A DNA stretch of 22,973 bases from contig AP026120.1 in NCBI GenBank assembly GCA_030295235.1, positions 62,001 through 84,973 on the forward strand, read 5' to 3'. The position numbers and the translations under genes were made by a program. This DNA is from Fistulifera solaris (Eukaryota). Of this stretch, positions 2,290 to 18,438 are shown one piece after another (position 1 is the stretch's first letter; every line of letters begins with the position of its first letter). A model generated the notes under the pieces. The model had not been told where the DNA came from and did no database searches. It saw only the letters and a list, made by a program, of their open reading frames with translations.

Positions 2290-2380
2290 AAACAATTAAA
2301 ATTTTTTAAATGATTCCCTACAAATAGTATTTGAAAAAAATTTTAATAAACACTTGAGTTCAAAACGAGTTCAGGTTAAA
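2290..2380 (-). rRNA. rrn5: Probable divergent mitochondrial 5S rRNA, ends uncertain
   Basis: The minus strand reads AACCTGAACTCGTTTTGAACTCAAGTG, similar to 5S helix III/loop C (CCUGACCCCAUGCCGAACUCAGAAGUG in E. coli). It is followed by a 13-bp stem (2295-2307/2335-2347) enclosing ATACT-ATTTGT-AGGGAA, a loop-E-like motif. It lies just downstream of rns. Confidence 0.55.
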
Positions 2381-2381
2381 G

Positions 2382-2430
2382 ATATGAAAATAGGGATTGA
2401 ACCTATAAAATCACCTAATTGATTTTCATA
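2382..2430 (-). ncRNA. tRNA-like element lacking an anticodon arm (t-element-like)
   Basis: Minus strand: TATGAAA (acceptor 5') ATCA-ATTAGG-TGAT (hairpin with GG in loop) TTT ATAGG-TTCAATC-CCTAT (T-arm) TTTCATA (acceptor 3') T. All stems pair perfectly. Confidence 0.75.
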
Positions 2431-2431
2431 T

Positions 2432-3915
2432 TTTTCCAGCTACACGTTCCCGTACAGCTACCTTGTTACGACTTCATCCAAATCGCTAATTTTTCAATCG
2501 GTTAGAACAAAGTCAAACCTTCAAGTAAAACTAACTTTCTGCATGTGACGGGCGGTTTGTACAAGGCTAATTGACATATTCACCGCAACATTCTGATTTG
2601 CGATTACTAGTGATTCCAACTTCATGTAAACGAGTTGCAGCTTACAATCCGAACTGGGAAAACTTTTAGGAGATTAACAAAAATTTAATTTTAGTTACTT
2701 TTTGTAATTTTCATTGTAGCACGTGTGTAGCCCAATTCATAAGGGTCACATTGACTTGGCTTAATTCTTCCTTCCTTCAACTTATAATTGACTGTAACTT
2801 TAAAGCTTTTTCTAAAATATTTTAGAAAAGTAAATAATTAAAGTCAAGAGTTGCGTTCGTTAAGGGAACTAACCAAACATCTCACGACACGAACTGACGA
2901 CAGTCGTGCAACACCTGTAATATTTCATTTTTTTAATTATCAGCAATAAATAAAAATAAAAATTTAATATTATGTCAAGAATTGGTAAGGTTTTGCGCGG
3001 ATTATCGCATTAAACCACATGCTCCACCACTAGTATTAGCCCCCGTCAATTTCTTTGAGTTCCAACCTTGCGATCGTACTCCTCAGGCGGAGTGTTTATA
3101 GCGTTAGCTTAAAAATCTAAATAAATTTTAATTTTTACATTAAATTTCAACACTCATAATTTACAGGTATGGACTACCAGGGTCTCTAATCCTGTTTGCT
3201 ACCCATACTTTCGTCCCTCAACGTCAGTTTTTACCAAAAAGTCGCCTTCGCTAATGGTATTCCTTTATATATTTACAGATTTTACCCTTTCGTATAAAAT
3301 TCTACTTTTCTGTATAAAACTCAAGCAAAGCAGTATTACAAGCTGTTTTAAAGTTGGGCTTTAAATTTTAACAAGTAACTTACTTTACCGTCTACGGACT
3401 CTTTACGCCCAGTCATGATGAATAACGCTTGCCCTTCCCGTATTACCGCGACTGCTGGCACGAGTATTAGCCAGGACTAATTCTTAAGTAATGTCATTAT
3501 CATTCTTAATAAAGAAGTTTACAATCAAAAAAACCGTCTTTCGTTCATTTAGTATTGCTGGATCAGACTTTCGTCCATTGTCCAATATTCCTCACTGCTG
3601 GCCGAAAACTCAGCCTGGACCTTATTTCAGTTCCAGTGTGGTTGATCATCCTCTAAGACCAACTAAAGATCAAAGGCTTGGTAAGCTATTAAATTTACCA
3701 ACTACCTAATCTTACGCAGACCCATCTTTTAGCAGAAATACAAAATAACATCGTAAAACTTTTAAAATATTCATGATTTATGATTTTGTCATGAACTAAA
3801 AGGTAGCAGTCTGCGCTTTCCTCACCCGTTCGCCACGAAAATAATTCCGTTAGACTTGCATGTGTAAAGCATACTAGTAGCGTTCATTCTGAGCCAGAAT
3901 AAAACTCATATTATA
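2432..3915 (-). rRNA. rns: Mitochondrial small-subunit rRNA
   Basis: Reverse complements of universal SSU motifs: GAGTTTTATTCTGGCTCAG near 3890-3907, GTGCCAGCAGTCGCGGTAATAC near 3440-3461, GTACAAACCGCCCGTCAC near 2546-2563, AAGTCGTAACAAGGTAGC near 2457-2474 and the terminal helix ending ~2435. Ends approximate. Confidence 0.97.
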
Positions 3916-7094: not shown

Positions 7095-9126
7095 TTATTT
7101 AATACTTTTTTCCTTAGGAGTTGGCTCGTATAGAATAAAAAATGCTGAAACAAAAACTAAAATAAATACTATTCGATCATTAAATAATGAAAACTGTACG
7201 AATGCCTCTCGGAAACCTAAAAGAAAAGTTACTCCCATTAGAATTAAAAAAGTATAATGGTAAATAAATCCTGTTTGCATCTTATGTAAACTAGAACCAA
7301 TTTTTAAAGCAACGCTAGATAAACCGGTAGGACCCAGAATTTCAAAAATACCTCTATCAACAAATTTATAGCTAGTTGAATAACCAAATTTAAAGAAAAA
7401 CTGCGCTAAATATTCGTTATAAATTTTATCAAAATACCATTTTCGATTTAAAAAATTATAAATTTTTTTACCAACAAAAGAAGTTTTTAGTTTGAATAAT
7501 AAATCTGATCTAAATGAATATAAAAAATAAGCTGATAAAACTCCTAATAAACTTAATTTTACAGGTAAAGTTTTATAAAAGGTTGGTATAAATTCAGCGT
7601 CAAATAAATTCATATTAACAGCATTAACATAAATAGCGCTTCCAAAAAACGGAGTTCCAACACCTACGATCATATCTTTAGTATAATATCCTACTAACAT
7701 ACTAGGTATTGATAAACTAGCCAATGCTATACAAATATTCAAGCCTGAATCAGCGGCATAAGAAATTACTTTTTTATAACCGTTAGGCTTCGATAAAAAA
7801 AGTTAGATAGGCTAGTCTAGTGGAATAAAAAGCTGTAAAGAAAGCTCCAACAGTTCCTAAAAAATAACTAAAATAACCAGGCAAACTATATTTACCATAA
7901 GCTACTTCTAAAATTAAATCTTTAGAATAAAAACCGGTTAAAAAAGGAAAACCAATTAATGCTAAAGAACCAATTGTCATCATAGCATAAGTGAAGGGTA
8001 GAAGAGATTTTAAACCACCCATTTTTCGCATATCTTGTTCATCCGCAACAGCATGGATGACTGACCCCGCTCCTAAAAAAAAGCAATGCCTTAAAAAATG
8101 CGTGATTAGATAAATGAAAAAAACCTACTGAATAATTCGATAAACCACATGCAAAAACCATGTAACCTAATTGGCTACAAGTAGAATAAGCTATAACACG
8201 CTTTAAGTCATTTTGCAATAAACCAGTTGTAGACGCAAAAAATGCAGTAAGTGCACCAACTATAGTAATTATTTCTAAAACATTAGGAATAAATTCATAT
8301 AGAAAAGAACTTCGAACAATTAAGAACACACCTGCAGTAACCATCGTAGCAGCATGAATTAACGCAGATACAGGAGTTGGCCCTTCCATGGCATCAGGTA
8401 ACCAAGTATGTAGACCTAACTGAGCTGACTTACCAACAGCTCCTAAAAATAAGAAAACTCCAATAGCTGTTAATAAATTTACATCTAAATTTAAAAAATT
8501 AATAACTTTATCTTTAAAAAACGGAGTTAGAACAGCAACACTTGCATAATCAATCGACTTATAATTAACGAAAATCAAAAAAATTCCCATTAACAAACTA
8601 AAATCTCCGATACGATTTATCAACATTGCTTTTATAGCAGCCTTATTCGCTTGAATTCTAGTAAACCAAAAATTAATTAATAAGTATGAGCACAAACCAA
8701 CACCTTCCCAACCAACAAACATTTGCACAAAATTATCAGCTGTTACTAAAATAAGCATAAAGAAAGTGAATAAAGATAAGTAAGACATGAAACGAGAAAT
8801 ATGAGGATCATGTGACATATATTCGGTAGAATATAAATGAACCAAAAATGAGATAAAAGTAACAACTACACACATAGAGGCAGTCAAACTATCGAACATA
8901 AAACCCCAATCAATATTTAAAACTTCCGAACTAATCCAAGTAGTTAATTTTATATAAACAAAACAACCTGAAAACGCAACTTCATAAAACACAAAAAGTG
9001 ATAATAAAAAGATAAAAATAAACAACTTGTTGTTATTATAGCAGAACCCCAAGATCCTAAATATCTACCGAATAATCCAGCAAGACAAGAACCGATAATA
9101 GATAAAAATACTAATAGTAAATACAT
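7095..9126 (-). CDS. nad5: NADH dehydrogenase subunit 5, three homopolymer frameshifts (~9008, ~8078, ~7797)
   Basis: ATG at 9126 ([24 protein letters not shown]). ORF fragments contain [58 protein letters not shown] and [10 protein letters not shown]. The fragments join by single-base corrections in A/T runs. Confidence 0.96.
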
Positions 9127-10539: not shown

Positions 10540-10542
10540 AAA

Positions 10543-10613
10543 TGTAAGAGATAAGAGTTGAACTTATATTTTCAGGGCATGAGCCTGACTGGTTACCGTT
10601 ACCACACCCTTAC
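10543..10613 (-). tRNA. trnM: tRNA-Met (CAU), probably elongator
   Basis: GTAAGGG...TCAGG-CTCATGC-CCTGA...ATAAG-TTCAACT-CTTAT-CTCTTAC-A. Paired G1-C72 and no run of three G-C pairs in the anticodon stem argue against the initiator. Confidence 0.9.
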
Positions 10614-10707
10614 AAAAGGAAAAAATGCATAGTGAGAATAGGATTATGCCAACAAGAAATTGAAAAAATTCCAAGTATAGCAAAACCTACAAACTCAACT
10701 ATTTAAA

Positions 10708-12399
<1,692 letters not shown>

Positions 12400-12409
12400 T
12401 TATTCGATC

Positions 12410-15400
12410 CTTCTTTTTTTCTCTATAAGGGTTAAATTTTATTTATATTTATGTTCATATTAGTTCTAACTTTGCATTTACTAATTTATTTCATTTTTTT
12501 AATTTTTATAAAATACTTGATTTTTCTAGATAGCTTTAACAATCTAACAAAGTTTAAGTTCCTTTTATAAATGGTAGTTAATGAAATTTATCTTTTTTAC
12601 CCCCTTTTCAATCCCTACCCTTTCTTTTTCCTCTATAAGGGTTAAATTTTATTTGTATTTTTATTCATCTTAATTTTAGCTTTGCAGAGATTAGCTTATC
12701 TCATTTTTTTAATTTACTAAAAGGAAAGTTTAGGTTTTGATTTTTATTAAAATTTTAATCATTTTGGAAATTTTGAATTATGTTTTTCTGTTTTGACCAA
12801 TTCTTTTATTTATTTGCATTTTAGTCTATTTTAGGTATTTTCCAATTTTTTGGCCTAATGTTGATTGGTTTTTCTTTTTCTTCTATAAGAATTGAATTTT
12901 ATTTGTATTTTATTCATCTCAATTTTAGCTTTACAATTCTTAGCTTATTTTATTTTTTAACATGGCGTAGGATAAAACCCACATTTTGATTTTTGCCGCG
13001 ATTTGAGCCTTTAATTTATTGACTCAAATCCTGTAGATTTCATAATTTTTGAATTCTTCTTTTTCCTTATTTTCATTTCCAATTTTGATATATTATTTAG
13101 CCAAAAAATTAAATTGAATTATGTTAACTTAATAGAAATAAGCATGAAATTGAAACATAGATGAGAATGTAATGGTTAAATAAAGATGTAAAAAATTAAT
13201 ACTTTATGCATTTAATATATGTATATTATATATATTTATGTTAATATCCTATGTTTTTATATTAAAGTTATTATATAACAACAGGAACAACTTCTAAAAT
13301 AAGTGTGGGTTATAAATAATTTGATCTTTTCTTCTTAAAACTTTTTTACTCAGTCGTTTCTTTTTTTATAGTATAGGAATATTAAATTTTAGTCATTTTA
13401 ATTTTAACTTTACACTTATTATCCTATATAATACCCTTTTTTGTAAATGATTTTATGTATTGGGGATTCTTATGATTTAAACCTCTATAATTGATCTAGC
13501 TCTAACTTGTTAGCTTCTTTTTGTAGTGTACTTCCCTATATTCCCCCTTTTTCAATTCCTACCCCTTCTTTTTCCTCTATAAGGGTTAAATTTTATTTGT
13601 ATTTTTATTCATCTTAATTTTAGCTTTGCAGAGATTAGCTTATCTCATTTTTTTAATTTACTAAAAGGAAAGTTTAGATTTTGATTTTTATTAAAATTTT
13701 AATCATTTTAGAAATTTTGAATTATGTTTTTCTGTTTTGACCAATTCTTTTATTCATTTGCATTTTAGTCTATTTTAGGTATTTTCCAATTTTTTGGCCT
13801 AATGTTGATTGGTTCTTCTTTTTCTTCTATAAGAATTGAATTTTATTTGTATTTTATTCATCTCAATTTTAGCTTTACAATTCTTAGCTTATTTTATTTT
13901 TTAACATGGCGTAGGATAAAACCCACATTTTGATTTTTGCCGCGATTTGAGCCTTTAATTTACTGACTCAAATCCTGTAGATTTCATAAATTTTGAATTC
14001 TTTTTTTCCTTATTTTCATTTCCAATTTTGATATATTATTTAGCCAAAAAATTAAATTGAATTATGTTAACTTAATAGAAATAAGCATGAAATTGAAACA
14101 TAGATGAGAATGTAATAATTAAATAAAGATGTAAAAATTAATACTTTATACATTTAATATATATATATATTTATGTTAATACCCTATGTTTTTATATTAA
14201 AGTTATTATATAACAATTTTAGTCATTTTAATTTTAACTTTACACTTATTATTCTATATAATACCCTTTTTGGTAAATTACTTTATGTATTGGGATTCCT
14301 ATGATTTAAACCTCTAGAATTGATCTAGCTCTAACTTGTTAGCTTCTTTTTGTAGTGTACTCCCTATATTCCCCCTTTTTCAATTCCTACCCCTTCTTTT
14401 TCCTCTATGAGGGTTAAATTTTATTTGTATTTTTATTCATCTTAATTTTAGCTTTGCAGAGATTAGCTTATCTCATTTTTTTAATTTACTAAAAGGAAAG
14501 TTTAGATTTTGATTTTTATTAAAATTTTAATCATTTTGGAAATTTTGAATTATGTTTTTCTGTTTTGACCAATTCTTTTATTTATTTGTATTTTAGGCTA
14601 TTTTATAGGTATTTTCCACTTTTTTAGCCTAATGCCGATTGGTTCTTCTTTTTCTTCTATAAGGATTGGATTTTATTTGTATTTTATTCATCTCAACTTT
14701 AGCTTTACAATTCTTAGCTTATTTTCTTTTTTAACATGGCATTTAGGATAAAACCCACATTTTGATTTTTGCCATGATTTGAGCCTTTAATTTATTGACT
14801 CAAATCCTGTAGATTTCATAATTTTTGAATTCTTTTTTTCCTTATTTTCATTTCCAATTTTGATATAGTATTTAGCCAAAAATTAAATTGAATTATGTTA
14901 ACTTAATAGAAATAAGCATGAAATTGAAACATAGATGAGAATGTAATAATTAAATAAAGATGTAAAAAATTAATACTTTATGCATTTAATATATGTATAT
15001 TATATATATTTATGTTAATATCCTATGTTTTTATATTAAAGTTATTATATAACAACAGGAACAACTTCTAAAATAAGTGTGGGTTATAAATAATTTGATC
15101 TTTTCTTCTTAAAACTTTTTTACTCAGTCGTTTCTTTTTTTATAGTATAGGAATATTAAATTTTAGTCATTTTAATTTTAACTTTACACTTATTATCCTA
15201 TATAATACCCTTTTTGTAAATGATTTTATGTATTGGGATTCTTATGATTTAAACCTCTATAATTGATCTAGCTCTAACTTGTTAGCTTCTTTTTGTAGTG
15301 TACTTCCCTATATTCCCCCTTTTTCAATTCCTACCCCCTTCTTTTTCCTCTATAAGGGTTAAATTTTATTTGTATTTTTATTCATCTTAATTTTAGCTTT

Positions 15401-15920
15401 GCAGAGATTAGCTTATCTCATTTTTTAATTTACTAAAAGGAAAGTTTAGATTTTGATTTTTATTAAAATTTTAATCATTTTGGAAATTTTGAATTATGTT
15501 TTTCTGTTTTGACCAATTCTCTTATTTATTTGCGTTTTAGTCTATTTTAGGTATTTTCCACTTTTTTGGCCTAATGTTGATTAGTTCTTCTTTTTCTTCT
15601 ATAAGAATTGAATTTTATTTGTATTTTATTCATTTCAATTTTAGCTTTACAATTCTTAGCTTATCTTATTTTTTAACATGGCGTAGGATAAAACCCACAT
15701 TTTGATTTTTGCCGCGATTTGAGCTTTTAATTTATTGACTCAAATCCTGTAGATTTCATAATTTTTGAATTCTTTCTTTTCCTTATTTTCATTTCCAATT
15801 TTGATAATAGTATTTAGCCAAAAATTAAATTGAATTATGTTAACTTAATAGAAATAAGCATGAAATTGAAACATAGATGAGAATGTAATGGTTAAATAAA
15901 GATGTAGAAAATTAATACTT
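12410..15920 (+). repeat. Direct tandem array of long units (periods ~944, 828, 945 bp, last unit truncated), preceded by a degenerate partial copy
   Basis: The marker CTCTAT(A/G)AGGGTTAAATTTTATTT recurs at 12421 (degenerate context), 12631, 13575, 14403 and 15348, with near-identical sequence between the last four. Confidence 0.97.
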
Positions 15921-16011
15921 ATAGGTTAAAATCTAGATGAACAAAGATAAAATTCAACATCTTAAAAACATATAAAAATTGATAAATAGTTGAATTTTGA
16001 ACCTTTGTACA

Positions 16012-18438
16012 AAAGGCTCAAATCATGACAAAAATCAAAATGTGGGTTTTATCCTACGCCATGTTAAAAAATAAGATAAGCTAAGAATTGTAAAGCTAAA
16101 ATTGAAATGAATAAAATACAAATAAAATTCAATTCTTATAGAAGAAAAAGAAGAACTAATCAACATTAGGCTAAAAAAGTGGAAAATACCTAAAATAGAC
16201 TAAAACGCAAATAAATAAGAGAATTGGTCAAAACAGAAAAACATAATTCAAAATTTCCAAAATGATTAAAATTTTAATAAAAATCAAAATCTAAACTTTC
16301 CTTTTAGTAAATTAAAAAAATGAGATAAGCTAATCTCTGCAAAGCTAAAATTAAGATGAATAAAAATACAAATAAAATTTAACCCTTATAGAGGAAAAAG
16401 AAGGGGGGTAGGAATTGAAAAAGGGGGAATATAGGGAAGTACACTACAAAAAGAAGCTAACAAGTTAGAGCTAGATCAATTCTAGAGGTTTAAATCATAG
16501 GAATCTCAATACATAAAGTCATTTACCAAAAGGGTATTATATAGGATAATAAGTGTAAAGTTAAAATTAAAATGACTAAAATTGTTATATAATAACTTTA
16601 ATATAAAAACATAGGGTATTAACATAAATATATATATTAAATGTATAAAGTATTAATTTTTACATCTTTATTTAACCATTACATTCTCATCTATGTTTCA
16701 ATTTCATGCTTATTTTTATTAAGTTAACATAATTCAATTTAATTTTTGGCTAAATAATATATCAAAATTGGAAATGAAAATAAGGAAAAGAAGAATTCAA
16801 AATTTATGAAATCTACAGGATTTGAGTCAATAAATTAAAGGCTCAAATCATGGCAAAAATCAAAATGTGGGTTTTAGCCTAATGTCATGTTAAAAAGAAA
16901 ATAAGCTAAGAATTGTAAAGCTAAAGTTGAGATGAATAAAATACAAATAAAATCCAATCCTTATAGAAGAAAAAGAAGAACCAATCGGCATTAGGCCAAA
17001 AAGTGGAAAATACCTAAAATAGACTAAAATGCAAATGAATAAAAGAATTGGTCAAAACAGAAAAACATAATTCAAAATTTCCAAAATGATTAAAATTTTA
17101 ATAAAAATCAAAATCTAAACTTTCCTTTTAGTAAATTAAAAAAAATGAGATAAGCTAATCTCTGCAAAGCTAAAATTAAGATGAATAAAAATACAAATAA
17201 AATTTAACCCTTATAGAGGAAAAAGAAGGGGTAGGAATTGAAAAGGGGGAATCTAAGGAAAAGAGTACACTACAAAAAGAAGCTAACAAGTTAGAGCTAG
17301 ATCAATTATAGAGGTTTAAATCATAGGAATCTCAATACATAAAGTCATTTACCAAAAGGGTATTATATAGGATAATAAGTGTAAAGTTAAAATTAAAATG
17401 ACTAAAATTTAATATTCTTATACTATACAAAAGAAACGACTGAGTAAAAAGTTTTAAGAAGAAAAGATCAAATTATTTATAATCCACACTTATTTTAGAA
17501 GTTGTTCCTGTTGTTATATAATAACTTTAATATAAAAACATAGGGTATTAACATAAATATATATATTAAATGTATAAAGTATTAATTTTTACATCTTTAT
17601 TTAACCATTACATTCTCATCTATGTTTCAATTTCATGCTTATTTTTATTAAGTTAACATAATTCAATTTAATTTTTGGCTAAATAATATATCAAAATTGG
17701 AAATGAAAATAAGGAAAAGAAGAATTCAAAATTTATGAAATCTACAGGATTTGAGTCAATAAATTAAAGGCTCAAATCATGGCAAAAATCAAAATGTGGG
17801 TTTTAGCCTAATGCCATGTTAAAAAGAAAATAAGCTAAGAATTGTAAAGCTAAAGTTGAGATGAATAAAATTCAAATAAATAAAAGAATTGGTCAAAACA
17901 GAAAAACATAATTCAAAATTTCCAAAATGATTAAAATTTTAATAAAAATCAAAATCTAAACTTTCCTTTTAGTAAATTAAAAAAATGAGATAAGCTAATC
18001 TCTGCAAAGCTAAAATTAAGATGAATAAAAATACAAATAAAATTTAACCCTTATAGAGGAAAAAGAAGGGGTAGGAATTTAAAAAGGGGGAATATAGGGA
18101 GTACACTACAAAAAGAAGCTAACAAGTTAGAGCTAGATCAATTATAGAGGTTTAAATCATAGGAATCTCAATACATAAAGTCATTTACCAAAAGGGTATT
18201 ATATAGGATAATAAATGTAAAGTTAAAATTAAAATGACTAAAATTTAATATTTTTATAATATAAAAAAAGAAACGACTGAGTAAAAAAGTTTTAAGAAGA
18301 AAAGATCAAATTATTTATAGCCCACACTTATTTTAGAGTTGTTCCTGTTGTTATATAATAGCTTTAATATAAAAACATATGGTATTAACATAAATAAAAT
18401 ATATATATATATATATTAAATGTATAAAGTATTAATTT
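16012..18438 (-). repeat. Same repeat units in inverted orientation, about 3 units (periods ~825 and 840 bp)
   Basis: The reverse-complement marker AACCCTTATAGAGG occurs at 16381, 17206 and 18046. The T-rich + strand switches to A-rich across ~15920-16010. Confidence 0.97.

What the first reader, a model, noticed from the sequence alone, without database searches (positions are those of the whole stretch)
2382..2430. 49-nt anticodon-less tRNA mimic placed exactly between rns and the 5S-like RNA
Seen: a perfect 7-8 bp acceptor stem (TATGAAA/TTTCATA), a 4-bp hairpin with GG in its loop (ATCA-ATTAGG-TGAT), a 3-nt linker and a canonical T-arm (ATAGG-TTCAATC-CCTAT). The anticodon arm is absent. 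It starts within ~5 nt of the terminal SSU helix, which has no anti-Shine-Dalgarno tail. Known: RNase P/PRORP and RNase Z recognise the acceptor stem, T-arm and D/T elbow rather than the anticodon, and plant mitochondrial t-elements and mascRNA exploit this. Inference: a tRNA reduced to a processing signal whose excision creates the rns 3' end and the 5S 5' end. Perfect pairing argues for selection rather than decay. tRNA scanners would probably miss it, and I know of no description in diatoms but cannot search.
Basis: partly seen in the sequence, partly recalled or inferred. Interest (0 to 1): 0.8.

Follow-up and report, generated by a model that had tools for sequence, protein, structure and literature searches.

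The report
Relic tRNA between diatom rRNA genes
A 49-base leftover of a tRNA gene, stripped of its anticodon arm but keeping the parts that tRNA-cutting enzymes recognise, sits between the small-subunit rRNA and a 5S-like RNA in a diatom mitochondrial genome and probably marks where the two RNAs are cut apart.

Summary
On the minus strand, 2430..2382 holds a perfect 7-bp outer stem, a 4-bp hairpin with GG in its loop, a U linker and a canonical T-arm. It starts 6 nt after rns helix 45 and is followed by a 5S-like RNA. Independent contigs give the same sequence, so it is not an assembly loss.

Thermodynamics alone is unremarkable. The comparative evidence is strong. Among 111 distinct stramenopile mitochondrial rns 3' ends, 43 carry an intact tRNA(CAU) at exactly this site. 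One rns-tree clade, which holds the window, carries degenerate versions. Their acceptor stem and T-arm are 73-93% conserved with compensatory changes, while the middle is scrambled (12-52 nt). A covariance model built without the window ranks this element first in the window.

The hairpin that the published "permuted 5S" covariance model takes as the 5S 5' hairpin is this T-arm.

Best reading (about 0.6): a tRNA relic kept as an RNase P / RNase Z cleavage signal, like plant mitochondrial t-elements. Cleavage itself is untested, because no usable RNA-end data were available. It is a new variant of a known kind, and my searches found no description of it in diatoms.

The parts
2431..3915 (-). 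rns (mitochondrial SSU rRNA). Helix 45 is at about 2460..2437, followed by the tail G+AAAAA (2436..2431) with no anti-Shine-Dalgarno sequence. The predicted mature 3' end is at 2431.
   Evidence: Rfam SSU_rRNA_bacteria scores 1018.7 bits over 2424-3915. The alignment of the 3' end is and the sequence. The 3' end is inferred from the element's boundary and has not been mapped.
2424..2430 (-). Acceptor-like stem, 5' strand (UAUGAAA).
   Evidence: It pairs 7 of 7 with 2383-2389. It is homologous to AAUGAAA of the intact post-rns tRNA(CAU) in relatives. Pair 1 is changed on both sides.
2410..2423 (-). D-arm remnant: a 4-bp hairpin, AUCA-AUUAGG-UGAU, with GG at element positions 16-17.
   Evidence: Sequence. 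22 of 24 related elements keep a GG within the first 26 nt after the acceptor strand, most of them at positions 15-20.
2407..2409 (-). U linker that stands in for the anticodon arm and variable loop.
   Evidence: the model alignment shows the deletion. The relative X4 has one U fewer.
2390..2406 (-). T-arm: AUAGG-UUCAAUC-CCUAU.
   Evidence: The Rfam mtPerm-5S model aligns its 5' hairpin to this stretch.
2382..2389 (-). Acceptor-like stem, 3' strand (UUUCAUA, 2389..2383) plus the discriminator-position U (2382). RNase Z is predicted to cut after 2382.
   Evidence: The cleavage is inferred.
2295..2381 (-). 5S-like RNA (rrn5-like). It has a loop-C-type hairpin at 2375..2351 and a loop-E-type domain closed by a 13-bp helix (2347..2335 with 2307..2295). 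The 3' end is approximate.
   Evidence: Rfam mtPerm-5S scores 19.5 bits, E 1.3, below the gathering score of 39. The stretch is conserved in X4 down to 2258. The same core follows rns in 28 distinct relatives. The closing helix beats shuffles in 18 of 19 relatives. The gene order rns->rrn5->nad6 matches that listed for Phaeodactylum in the supplementary table of PMC4267664.
1575..2189 (-). nad6, the next gene downstream. Its reading frame is disturbed in the window.
   Evidence: Weak Pfam Oxidored_q3 hit, E 2.7e-4. In relatives, nad6-like ORFs follow the tRNA or the 5S-like RNA.

Best explanation
The element is the relic of a tRNA(CAU) gene that stood directly behind rns in the ancestor. It still stands there, intact, in many other diatom-like mitochondria. 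In the raphid-pennate lineage that holds the window, the decoding parts were lost; in the window the whole anticodon arm and variable loop are reduced to UUU. The acceptor stem, the GG of the D-loop and the T-arm were kept. Those are the parts that RNase P (RNA-based or PRORP) and RNase Z recognise.

Inferred mechanism: on the rnl-rns-(element)-5S-like precursor, RNase P cuts 5' of U2430 and so makes the rns 3' end at 2431. RNase Z cuts after U2382 and so makes the 5' end of the 5S-like RNA at 2381. The 49-nt piece is released.

Shown: the tRNA origin, the positional homology, and the differential conservation with compensatory changes. Inferred: the two cleavages and the fate of the excised piece.
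For: 1. Homology of place and sequence. 111 are distinct with at least 230 nt downstream. Of these, 43 have an ARAGORN tRNA-Met(CAU) starting 8-13 nt after GCUGGAA, with acceptor AAUGAAA/UUUCAUU. The window has UAUGAAA/UUUCAUA at the same offset.

2. Degenerate series. 31 distinct sequences keep acceptor plus T-arm but have no CAU tRNA call; two of these, L060 and L062, are doubtful (see the full report). 20 of the 31 are followed by the 5S-like core. Three more with the core (L019, L025, L072) are found by model R1. Total lengths run from 43 to 84 nt.

3. Constraint (24 elements without the window). Mean pairwise identity is 0.93 in both acceptor strands, 0.84 in the T-loop and 0.73-0.81 in the T-stem. 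It is 0.40 in the middle (0.32 expected at random) and 0.29 at the discriminator.

4. Covariation. 95.8% of cells are paired. 7 of 12 pairs have both-side changes, in 15 cells. 0 of 500 shuffles reach this. Slid controls give 49-71% paired. Examples: AGUAAAA/UUUUACU and UAUGAAA/UUUCAUA.

5. Model R1, built without the window, ranks the element first in the window (30.4 bits). Rfam calls one relative's element tRNA above threshold (L086, 31.9 bits) and three just below.

6. rns tree (70 rows, FastTree). All 16 elements followed by the 5S-like RNA, the 2 reduced forms and 3 others lie in one clade (support 97). Anticodon-degenerate forms without a 5S-like RNA arose at least 2-3 more times among lineages with an intact tRNA, and each time kept acceptor and T-arm.

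7. A genome with the relic still has a tRNA with the same body elsewhere (L015 contig, tRNA no. 21). So decoding was taken over by another copy.

8. Literature. [quoted passage not shown] RNase Z faces the acceptor stem and T domain, and other elements are largely dispensable (PMC3790967, passages). Plant t-elements work this way (PMC1920247, passages).
Against: - No RNA ends were seen. All four runs laid were contigs.
- The fold of the single sequence is not better than shuffles (z -1.44), and its MFE does not form the D-like hairpin.
- The covariation set was chosen by requiring at least 6 of 7 acceptor pairs and at least 4 of 5 T pairs. The percentage paired is therefore inflated; only the both-side changes and the contrast with the middle carry weight.
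- The forms followed by the 5S-like RNA are one clade, so part of the conservation is shared ancestry.
- The signal is not indispensable. In the window's nearest relative on the tree (L032; L067 is similar) the element is a 30-nt stem-hairpin with 5-nt linkers and no C56. L057 keeps only the outer hairpin. L123 keeps little.
- The D-like hairpin abuts the acceptor stem without the usual two linker bases.
- Which RNase P and RNase Z act in diatom mitochondria is not known to me. A review table lists both RNP RNase P and PRORP for stramenopiles (PMC9181182).
Confidence: 0.6

Rival explanations
1. The 3' half of the element belongs to the mature 5S-like rRNA. The T-arm hairpin would be the 5' hairpin of a 'permuted alpha domain', and UUUCAUAU would be the 5' strand of 5S helix II, as modelled for raphid pennate diatoms by Valach et al. 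2014. The upstream strand would then pair only by chance or only in the precursor. A variant of this reading: the whole tRNA-like module stays fused to the 5S-like RNA.
For: - Rfam mtPerm-5S aligns its 5' hairpin to 2406..2390 and its helix II to the acceptor 3' strand. This holds in the window (19.5 bits) and in relative L033 (24.6 bits, E 0.018 on 201 nt).
- A brown-alga-type locus (L005, 123 bits) has a 5' hairpin with a similar stem (AGAGG/CCUCU) at the corresponding place.
- In most relatives from the window's clade the element directly precedes the 5S-like RNA.
- The diatom 5S termini were never mapped (PMC4267664, section 18).
Against: - The acceptor 3' strand covaries with the upstream strand.
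- Its best complement in the downstream segment equals shuffles (5.2 vs 5.23 of 7). This is a weak test, because the segment was cut short in some rows.
- The strand that the 5S model gives to helix II (2348..2341) is instead part of a 13-bp helix with the 3' tail. That helix is supported in 18 of 19 relatives.
- The spacer between the element and the loop-C core varies from 2 to 25 nt.
- The same acceptor plus T-arm relic is kept in lineages with no 5S-like RNA behind it.
- Both Rfam scores are below the gathering score of 39.
Confidence: 0.15
2. The excised tRNA-like RNA has a function of its own that is not decoding. It could be a stable CCA-tailed small RNA, a regulator, or a ribosome-associated RNA. 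Processing would then be only a by-product.
For: - Acceptor stem, D-loop GG and T-arm are kept, which is what a stable L-shaped RNA needs.
- Eustigmatophyte mitochondria hold conserved tRNA-like loci (tRNA-X1 to X3). Their anticodon arm is variable or missing and their function is unclear (PMC13449250, passages).
Against: - The middle varies from 12 to 52 nt with near-random identity.
- Some close relatives lose the T-arm or the tRNA shape altogether.
- The position, glued to the rns 3' end, is constant. That fits a cis signal better than a free gene.
Confidence: 0.12
3. It is a neutral pseudogene: a decaying tRNA copy with no present role, whose stems survive by chance or by recent origin.
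For: - The single-sequence fold is not significant.
- Reduced or lost forms exist in relatives (L032, L057, L123).
- The element changes faster than its neighbours between the window and X4: 3 substitutions and 1 deletion in 49 nt. The next 124 nt show 2 substitutions and 1 indel, plus the window's own extra base at 2285. The 170 nt of rns show none.
Against: - There is a large contrast between the stems and T-loop (0.73-0.93 identity) and the middle (0.40) across a clade whose rns end branches reach about 0.2 changes per site.
- Both-side compensatory changes occur in 7 of 12 pairs.
- All changes in X4 are fold-compatible.
- Acceptor and T-arm were retained again after each independent loss of the anticodon.
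Confidence: 0.08

Closest known systems
Plant mitochondrial t-elements (Forner et al. 2007, PMC1920247, passages read; Hanic-Joyce et al. 1990 known only from that paper's citation)
   Same: Both are tRNA-like structures with non-canonical cloverleaves and the GGTTCRANYCC T-arm motif. Both lie at transcript ends and are proposed, and in plants shown in vitro, to direct RNase P and RNase Z cuts. Some plant examples also lack the D and anticodon domains (ccmC; PMC3858429).
   Different: Here the element lies between two rRNA genes, not at mRNA ends. It is in a stramenopile. It has a traceable intact orthologue, tRNA(CAU), at the same site in relatives. Its cleavage has not been tested.
tRNA punctuation of mitochondrial polycistronic transcripts (as summarised in PMC9181182 and PMC3790967, passages)
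   Same: A tRNA-shaped unit between two genes supplies both flanking RNA ends. Relatives with the intact tRNA(CAU) behind rns are ordinary cases of this.
   Different: In the window the punctuating unit can no longer be a tRNA, because it has no anticodon arm. Only the signal function could remain.
Permuted mitochondrial 5S rRNA, Rfam RF02547 (Valach et al. 2014, PMC4267664; passages, sections 17-18 and the supplementary table were read; Supplementary Figure S2 could not be read)
   Same: The model's 5' hairpin falls on the element's T-arm. The downstream loop-C and loop-E motifs are shared. The gene order rns->rrn5(-like)->nad6 or trnM is as listed there for raphid pennate diatoms.
   Different: In diatoms the hairpin has a canonical 7-nt T-loop and is enclosed by a covarying acceptor stem. 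It is also homologous to the T-arm of a real tRNA in relatives. The brown-alga-type locus L005 has a 4-nt loop and no acceptor flanks. The scores here are below the family threshold.
tRNA-X1/X2/X3 loci of Vischeria (eustigmatophyte) mitochondria (PMC13449250, passages read)
   Same: Both are ochrophyte mitochondrial tRNA derivatives. Both have a highly variable or missing anticodon arm while the other parts are conserved, and both are judged to be under selection and non-decoding.
   Different: The Vischeria loci derive from trnK(uuu), lie at other sites, and have no proposed link to rRNA processing. No sequence comparison was made here.
mascRNA from MALAT1 and the tRNA in the mammalian mitoribosome central protuberance
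   Same: mascRNA is a tRNA-like module cut out by RNase P and RNase Z to make a neighbour's end. The mitoribosome case is a tRNA gene next to rRNA genes that serves a ribosomal, non-decoding role.
   Different: These are different organisms and compartments. No evidence here shows CCA addition or incorporation into the ribosome.

Membership tests
Canonical tRNA (Rfam RF00005 / ARAGORN) | A cloverleaf with an anticodon arm, and a score at or above the family threshold. | tested here: not met
   There is no anticodon arm. Rfam scores 15.6 bits against a gathering score of 29. ARAGORN makes no call.
Canonical tRNA (Rfam RF00005 / ARAGORN) | A 7-bp acceptor stem, a T-arm with the T-loop consensus, and GG in the D-loop. 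| tested here: met
   Read from the sequence; model alignment.
Post-rns tRNA(CAU)-derived elements of diatom-type mitochondria (family defined here, model R1) | Starts a few nt after rns helix 45, has acceptor AAUGAAA/UUUCAUU-type strands plus a T-arm, and matches a model built without the window. | tested here: met
   30.4 bits, rough E 0.006, and top hit of the window. Same offset as in relatives.
Plant-type t-element (functional class) | A tRNA-like fold containing the GGTTCRANYCC motif. | tested here: met
   GGTTCAATCCC at 2403..2393 on the minus strand. The motif is the one used by Forner et al..
Plant-type t-element (functional class) | The element's ends coincide with mapped ends of the flanking RNAs. 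| not testable with these tools
   Only contigs were available.
Plant-type t-element (functional class) | Cleaved by RNase P and RNase Z. | not testable with these tools
   This needs an enzyme assay.
Permuted mt-5S rRNA (RF02547), alpha-domain hairpin | A score at or above the gathering threshold of 39 bits. | tested here: not met
   19.5 bits in the window and 24.6 bits in L033. No hit at E<=1 in the 20 relatives searched together.
Permuted mt-5S rRNA (RF02547), alpha-domain hairpin | The strand after the hairpin forms helix II with a strand 3' of helix III. | tested here: not met
   No excess complementarity (a weak test). The proposed partner strand pairs with the 3' tail instead. The acceptor strands covary with each other.

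The most novel reading that the evidence does not exclude
The tRNA relic may not be discarded. Its T-arm (or the whole L-shaped module) may stay attached to, or assemble with, the reduced 5S-like RNA, which has no helix I or II of its own. It would then stand in for the missing alpha domain in the central protuberance of the diatom mitoribosome. That would be a tRNA/5S chimera, parallel to the tRNA in mammalian mitoribosomes. By extension, the 'permuted' 5' hairpin of brown-algal mitochondrial 5S rRNA could itself descend from the T-arm of a tRNA that once stood between rns and rrn5.
Probability: 0.12. Interest if true: 0.85.

Novelty: new variant of a known kind. Interest (0 to 1): 0.6.

Why it matters
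1. It gives a natural series at one genomic site: intact tRNA, then tRNA with a drifting anticodon arm, then a 43-84-nt relic, then a bare hairpin. The series shows which parts of a tRNA are kept when only the processing role could remain. Those parts are the acceptor stem, the D-loop GG and the T-arm, which matches what enzyme studies report for PRORP and RNase Z.

2. It offers a testable account of how the 3' end of the mitochondrial SSU rRNA and the 5' end of the 5S-like RNA are made in diatoms.

3. It questions a published structural model. What was drawn as the permuted alpha-domain hairpin and helix II of diatom 'rrn5-like' RNAs is, by origin and covariation, the T-arm and acceptor strand of a tRNA relic. 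The 5S-like RNA of these diatoms may therefore be only two hairpins.

4. Annotation pipelines miss the element and may place the rrn5 boundary wrongly.

Tried and rejected
- **RNA evidence.** In the one RNA run laid (X19), all but one of the contigs listed covered only the near-universal SSU stretch 2434-2479. The exception, a 202-nt contig at depth 3.54, matches 2424-2600 and then diverges after the acceptor 5' strand. This says nothing about RNA ends. X1 is 'RNA?' only as a guess.
- **5S-motif scan of genome contigs.** It found 13 loci, of which only 1 (L005) was mitochondrial. I switched to an rns 3'-end pattern.
- **MAFFT alignment A1.** It misplaced the window's 5' acceptor strand. The window and L018 were therefore left out of A2, which also made R1 independent of the window.
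- **RNAalifold on the 5S-like alignment (A3).** It predicted no pairs. Per-sequence duplex folding was used instead.
- **Helix II test.** It cut the downstream segment short in some rows, including the window, so it is only weak evidence.
- **Rfam on the 69-nt stretch alone.** It gave no tRNA hit. The best hit there, a plastid ycf2 5'UTR family on the plus strand (18.8 bits), just mirrors the T-arm.
- **Consensus scans around the element.** One promoter-like site was found, fewer than in shuffles, and no terminator-like site.
- **Assembly loss of an anticodon arm.** Rejected.
- **Conventional 5S helix I.** I considered a helix between the D-like hairpin region and the 3' tail (CAAUUA/UAAUUG). 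I dropped it because it would leave about 40 nt between helices I and II.

Full report
**What is there.** The window is part of a mitochondrial genome, with its genes on the minus strand. The order is cox1, trnM, cob, trnS, nad5, trnH, rnl, rns, the element, a 5S-like stretch, nad6, nad2. The best named matches of its cox1 are raphid pennate diatoms: Amphora coffeiformis at 88%, then Haslea, Navicula, Pleurosigma, Halamphora and Pseudo-nitzschia.

On the minus strand the element reads as follows:
- UAUGAAA (2430..2424)
- AUCA-AUUAGG-UGAU (2423..2410)
- UUU (2409..2407)
- AUAGG-UUCAAUC-CCUAU (2406..2390)
- UUUCAUA (2389..2383)
- U (2382)

Only G+AAAAA separates it from the element, and there is no anti-Shine-Dalgarno tail.

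**Is it real and more than chance?** ARAGORN does not call it (6 tRNAs elsewhere in the window). Rfam tRNA gives 15.6 bits, E 5.1. The single-sequence fold is unremarkable: -8.9 kcal/mol, z -1.44, and 19 of 200 shuffles fold as well. The MFE keeps the outer stem but not the D-like hairpin. So the one sequence alone proves little.

It is not an assembly artefact. Contigs of two runs (X1, 3863 nt; X2, 2624 nt) are identical through it. Both show one surplus homopolymer base in the window at 2285, outside the element. The window does contain indel errors of this kind, and nad5, nad2 and nad6 are frame-broken.

A related organism (X4, 29651-nt contig) carries a 48-nt version. Its differences are A2>G (G.U with U47), T-loop A57>G, T-loop C60>U, and one U fewer in the linker. 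All are compatible with the fold. rns 2431-2600 is identical in X4. The 5S-like stretch 2258-2381 differs by 2 substitutions and 1 insertion.

**Relatives.** A pattern from the rns 3' end was chosen because the window and a brown-alga-type locus share it. With L005 and the window that makes 126 sequences. 111 of them are distinct and have at least 230 nt downstream.

Classification by ARAGORN plus simple rules:

| State of the post-rns site | 5S-like core follows | No 5S-like core |
|---|---|---|
| Canonical tRNA-Met(CAU) starting 8-13 nt after GCUGGAA | 0 | 43 |
| Acceptor stem plus T-arm at the same place, no CAU tRNA call | 20 (window included) | 11 |
| Other | 8 | 29 |

- The 43 canonical tRNAs have acceptor AAUGAAA/UUUCAUU. 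They are usually followed by nad6.
- Two of the 11 degenerate forms without a 5S-like core are doubtful. L062 is a real tRNA-Asn further downstream. L060 has a different acceptor stem.
- Of the 8 'other' rows with the 5S-like core, three were missed by my rule but are found by the covariance model (L025 58.5 bits, L072 55.5, L019 25.3). Four are further reduced: L032 and L067 are a 30-nt stem-hairpin, L057 is an acceptor hairpin only, and L123 keeps little. One (L005) is brown-alga-type.

The degenerate elements are 43 to 84 nt long. The window's D-like hairpin resembles the D-arm of the intact tRNA. The window's version looks like that tRNA with positions 26-48 replaced by UUU.

**Constraint.** The test set is 24 degenerate elements (alignment A2). 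The window was left out because MAFFT misaligned it in A1. Mean pairwise identity by region:

| Region | Mean pairwise identity |
|---|---|
| Acceptor strands | 0.93 and 0.93 |
| T-loop | 0.84 |
| T-stem strands | 0.73 and 0.81 |
| Middle (12-52 nt long) | 0.40 (0.32 expected at random for its composition) |
| Discriminator | 0.29 |

A GG lies within the first 26 nt after the acceptor strand in 22 of the 24, mostly at positions 15-20. In the window it is at positions 16-17.

On the acceptor plus T-stem structure, 95.8% of cells pair. 7 of 12 pairs show changes on both sides, in 15 cells. 0 of 500 shuffles reach this, and slid controls give 49-71% paired.

Caveat: these rows were picked by requiring at least 6 of 7 and at least 4 of 5 pairs. 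The percentage paired is therefore biased. The compensatory changes and the contrast with the middle are the informative part.

A covariance model built from A2 (R1) puts the window's element first in the whole window, at 30.4 bits and rough E 0.006. The real trnV (26.6) and trnQ (26.1) come next. No second element of this kind is seen in the window. Rfam itself calls one relative's element tRNA above threshold (L086, 31.9 bits) and three just below.

**Phylogeny.** The tree uses 550 nt of rns from 70 loci (FastTree, local support only, midpoint root). One clade with support 97 holds all 16 degenerate-plus-5S-like rows, both reduced rows, and three 'other' rows. Those three still give R1 hits (L051 40.5, L082 31.5, L060 25.0 bits). 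The window groups with L019 and L032 (support 99).

The tRNA-sized forms with an altered anticodon arm and no 5S-like RNA need at least 3 changes on the tree. They sit nested among lineages with the intact tRNA. One of the three groups (L031) I assigned by eye, so a cautious count is two to three. The decoding part was therefore lost several times, and each time the acceptor stem and T-arm were kept.

In one genome with the relic (the 41-kb contig of L015), a tRNA(CAU) with nearly the same body but another acceptor stem lies behind nad6. In a genome with the intact post-rns tRNA, that tRNA is the only match to this body on the mitochondrial contig. So the decoding job appears to have moved to another copy.

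**The 5S question.** Valach et al. 2014 (PMC4267664) list rns->rrn5->nad6 for Phaeodactylum and rns->rrn5-like->trnM for four other raphid pennate diatoms. They model these with a 'permuted alpha domain', a roughly 15-nt 5' hairpin, and state that diatom termini could not be mapped. I read passages, sections 17 and 18, and the supplementary spreadsheet. Supplementary Figure S2 is a PDF that I could not read.

The Rfam model of that family aligns its 5' hairpin to the element's T-arm and its helix II 5' strand to the acceptor 3' strand. This holds in the window (19.5 bits) and in L033 (24.6 bits). Both scores are below the gathering score of 39.

Four results speak against that assignment:
- The acceptor strands covary with each other.
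- The strand that the 5S model pairs with the acceptor 3' strand (2348..2341) is part of a 13-bp helix, 2347..2335 with 2307..2295. The equivalent duplex beats shuffles in 18 of 19 relatives (mean z -3.9), and the helix sequences differ between lineages.
- The spacer between the element and the loop-C core varies from 2 to 25 nt.
- The relic is kept in lineages where no 5S-like RNA follows.

The 5S-like RNA itself looks genuine as a conserved RNA. It has loop-C-type and loop-E-type motifs, it is conserved in X4, and it is present behind rns in 28 distinct relatives. It seems to consist of two hairpins without helices I and II.

**Mechanism.** The parts retained match published enzyme requirements:
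- For PRORP the acceptor stem is essential and the anticodon domain dispensable. [quoted passage not shown]
- RNase Z faces the stacked acceptor stem and T domain, and the rest is largely dispensable (PMC3790967, passages).
- Plant mitochondrial t-elements are cut by both enzymes and coincide with RNA ends (PMC1920247, passages).
- A review table lists both RNP RNase P and PRORP for stramenopiles (PMC9181182).

I therefore infer an RNase P cut 5' of 2430 and an RNase Z cut 3' of 2382. These cuts would give the rns 3' end at 2431 and the 5S-like 5' end at 2381. This step is inferred, not shown.

Points against: no RNA-end data exist. Close relatives have strongly reduced forms, so the signal cannot be indispensable. 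The D-like hairpin joins the acceptor stem without the usual linker.

**Novelty.** Searches of the held library found no description of this element in diatoms:
- rrn5 + diatom + mitochondrial genome
- diatom + mitochondrial + tRNA-like
- Phaeodactylum + mitochondrial + rrn5 + rns + tRNA
- diatom + mitochondrial genome + tRNA punctuation
- diatom/mitochondrial with tRNA pseudogene, remnant, degenerate or truncated

The library lacks most subscription journals. The closest precedents are plant t-elements and the eustigmatophyte tRNA-X loci (PMC13449250).

My verdict is a new variant of a known kind, with a side result that bears on the published permuted-5S model for diatoms.

Noticed in passing
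window 12400-18400: A large non-coding repeat region. It holds two families of long tandem units with start-to-start spacing of about 825-945 nt and 3-5 copies at 63-100% identity. TRF, whose longest period is 500, reports nothing.
   Followed up: partly
window 2285; nad5 7095-9052; nad2 3-1597; nad6 1575-2189: The window carries indel errors. One surplus homopolymer base at 2285 is contradicted by the contigs of three runs. nad5 and nad2 are each split into two ORFs, and the nad6 frame is garbled in the middle.
   Followed up: partly
window 10542-10614 (-): The CAU tRNA that follows the 5S-like RNA in most relatives and in the brown-alga-type locus has the anticodon stem-loop GGCUCAUGCC. In the window it lies between cox1 and cob instead. 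The 5S-like RNA is followed directly by nad6, as listed for Phaeodactylum.
   Followed up: partly
window 2295-2375 and the 19 sequences of alignment A3: The 5S-like RNA of these diatoms appears to be only two hairpins: a loop-C-type hairpin and a loop-E-type domain closed by a 12-15-bp helix. No helix I or II is evident.
   Followed up: partly
L048, L105, L106, L098, L040 (post-rns tRNA-sized elements): Several relatives' degenerate post-rns tRNAs have anticodon loops that ARAGORN reads as UCA or UUA, which are complementary to stop codons. Close relatives of the same group show other triplets, or none. I read this as drift. A changed decoding role was not excluded.
   Followed up: no
L062 596-693 (-) and downstream: In another stramenopile-type lineage a normal tRNA-Asn(GUU) lies between rns and a stretch with a loop-C-like 5S motif. 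So a tRNA between rns and a 5S-like RNA may not be limited to diatoms.
   Followed up: no
L005 691-796 (-): The 5' hairpin of a high-scoring permuted 5S (123 bits) has the stem AGAGG/CCUCU. This is the same stem sequence as the T-stem of several diatom relics, but with a 4-nt loop and no acceptor flanks. The two could be homologous or it could be coincidence.
   Followed up: no
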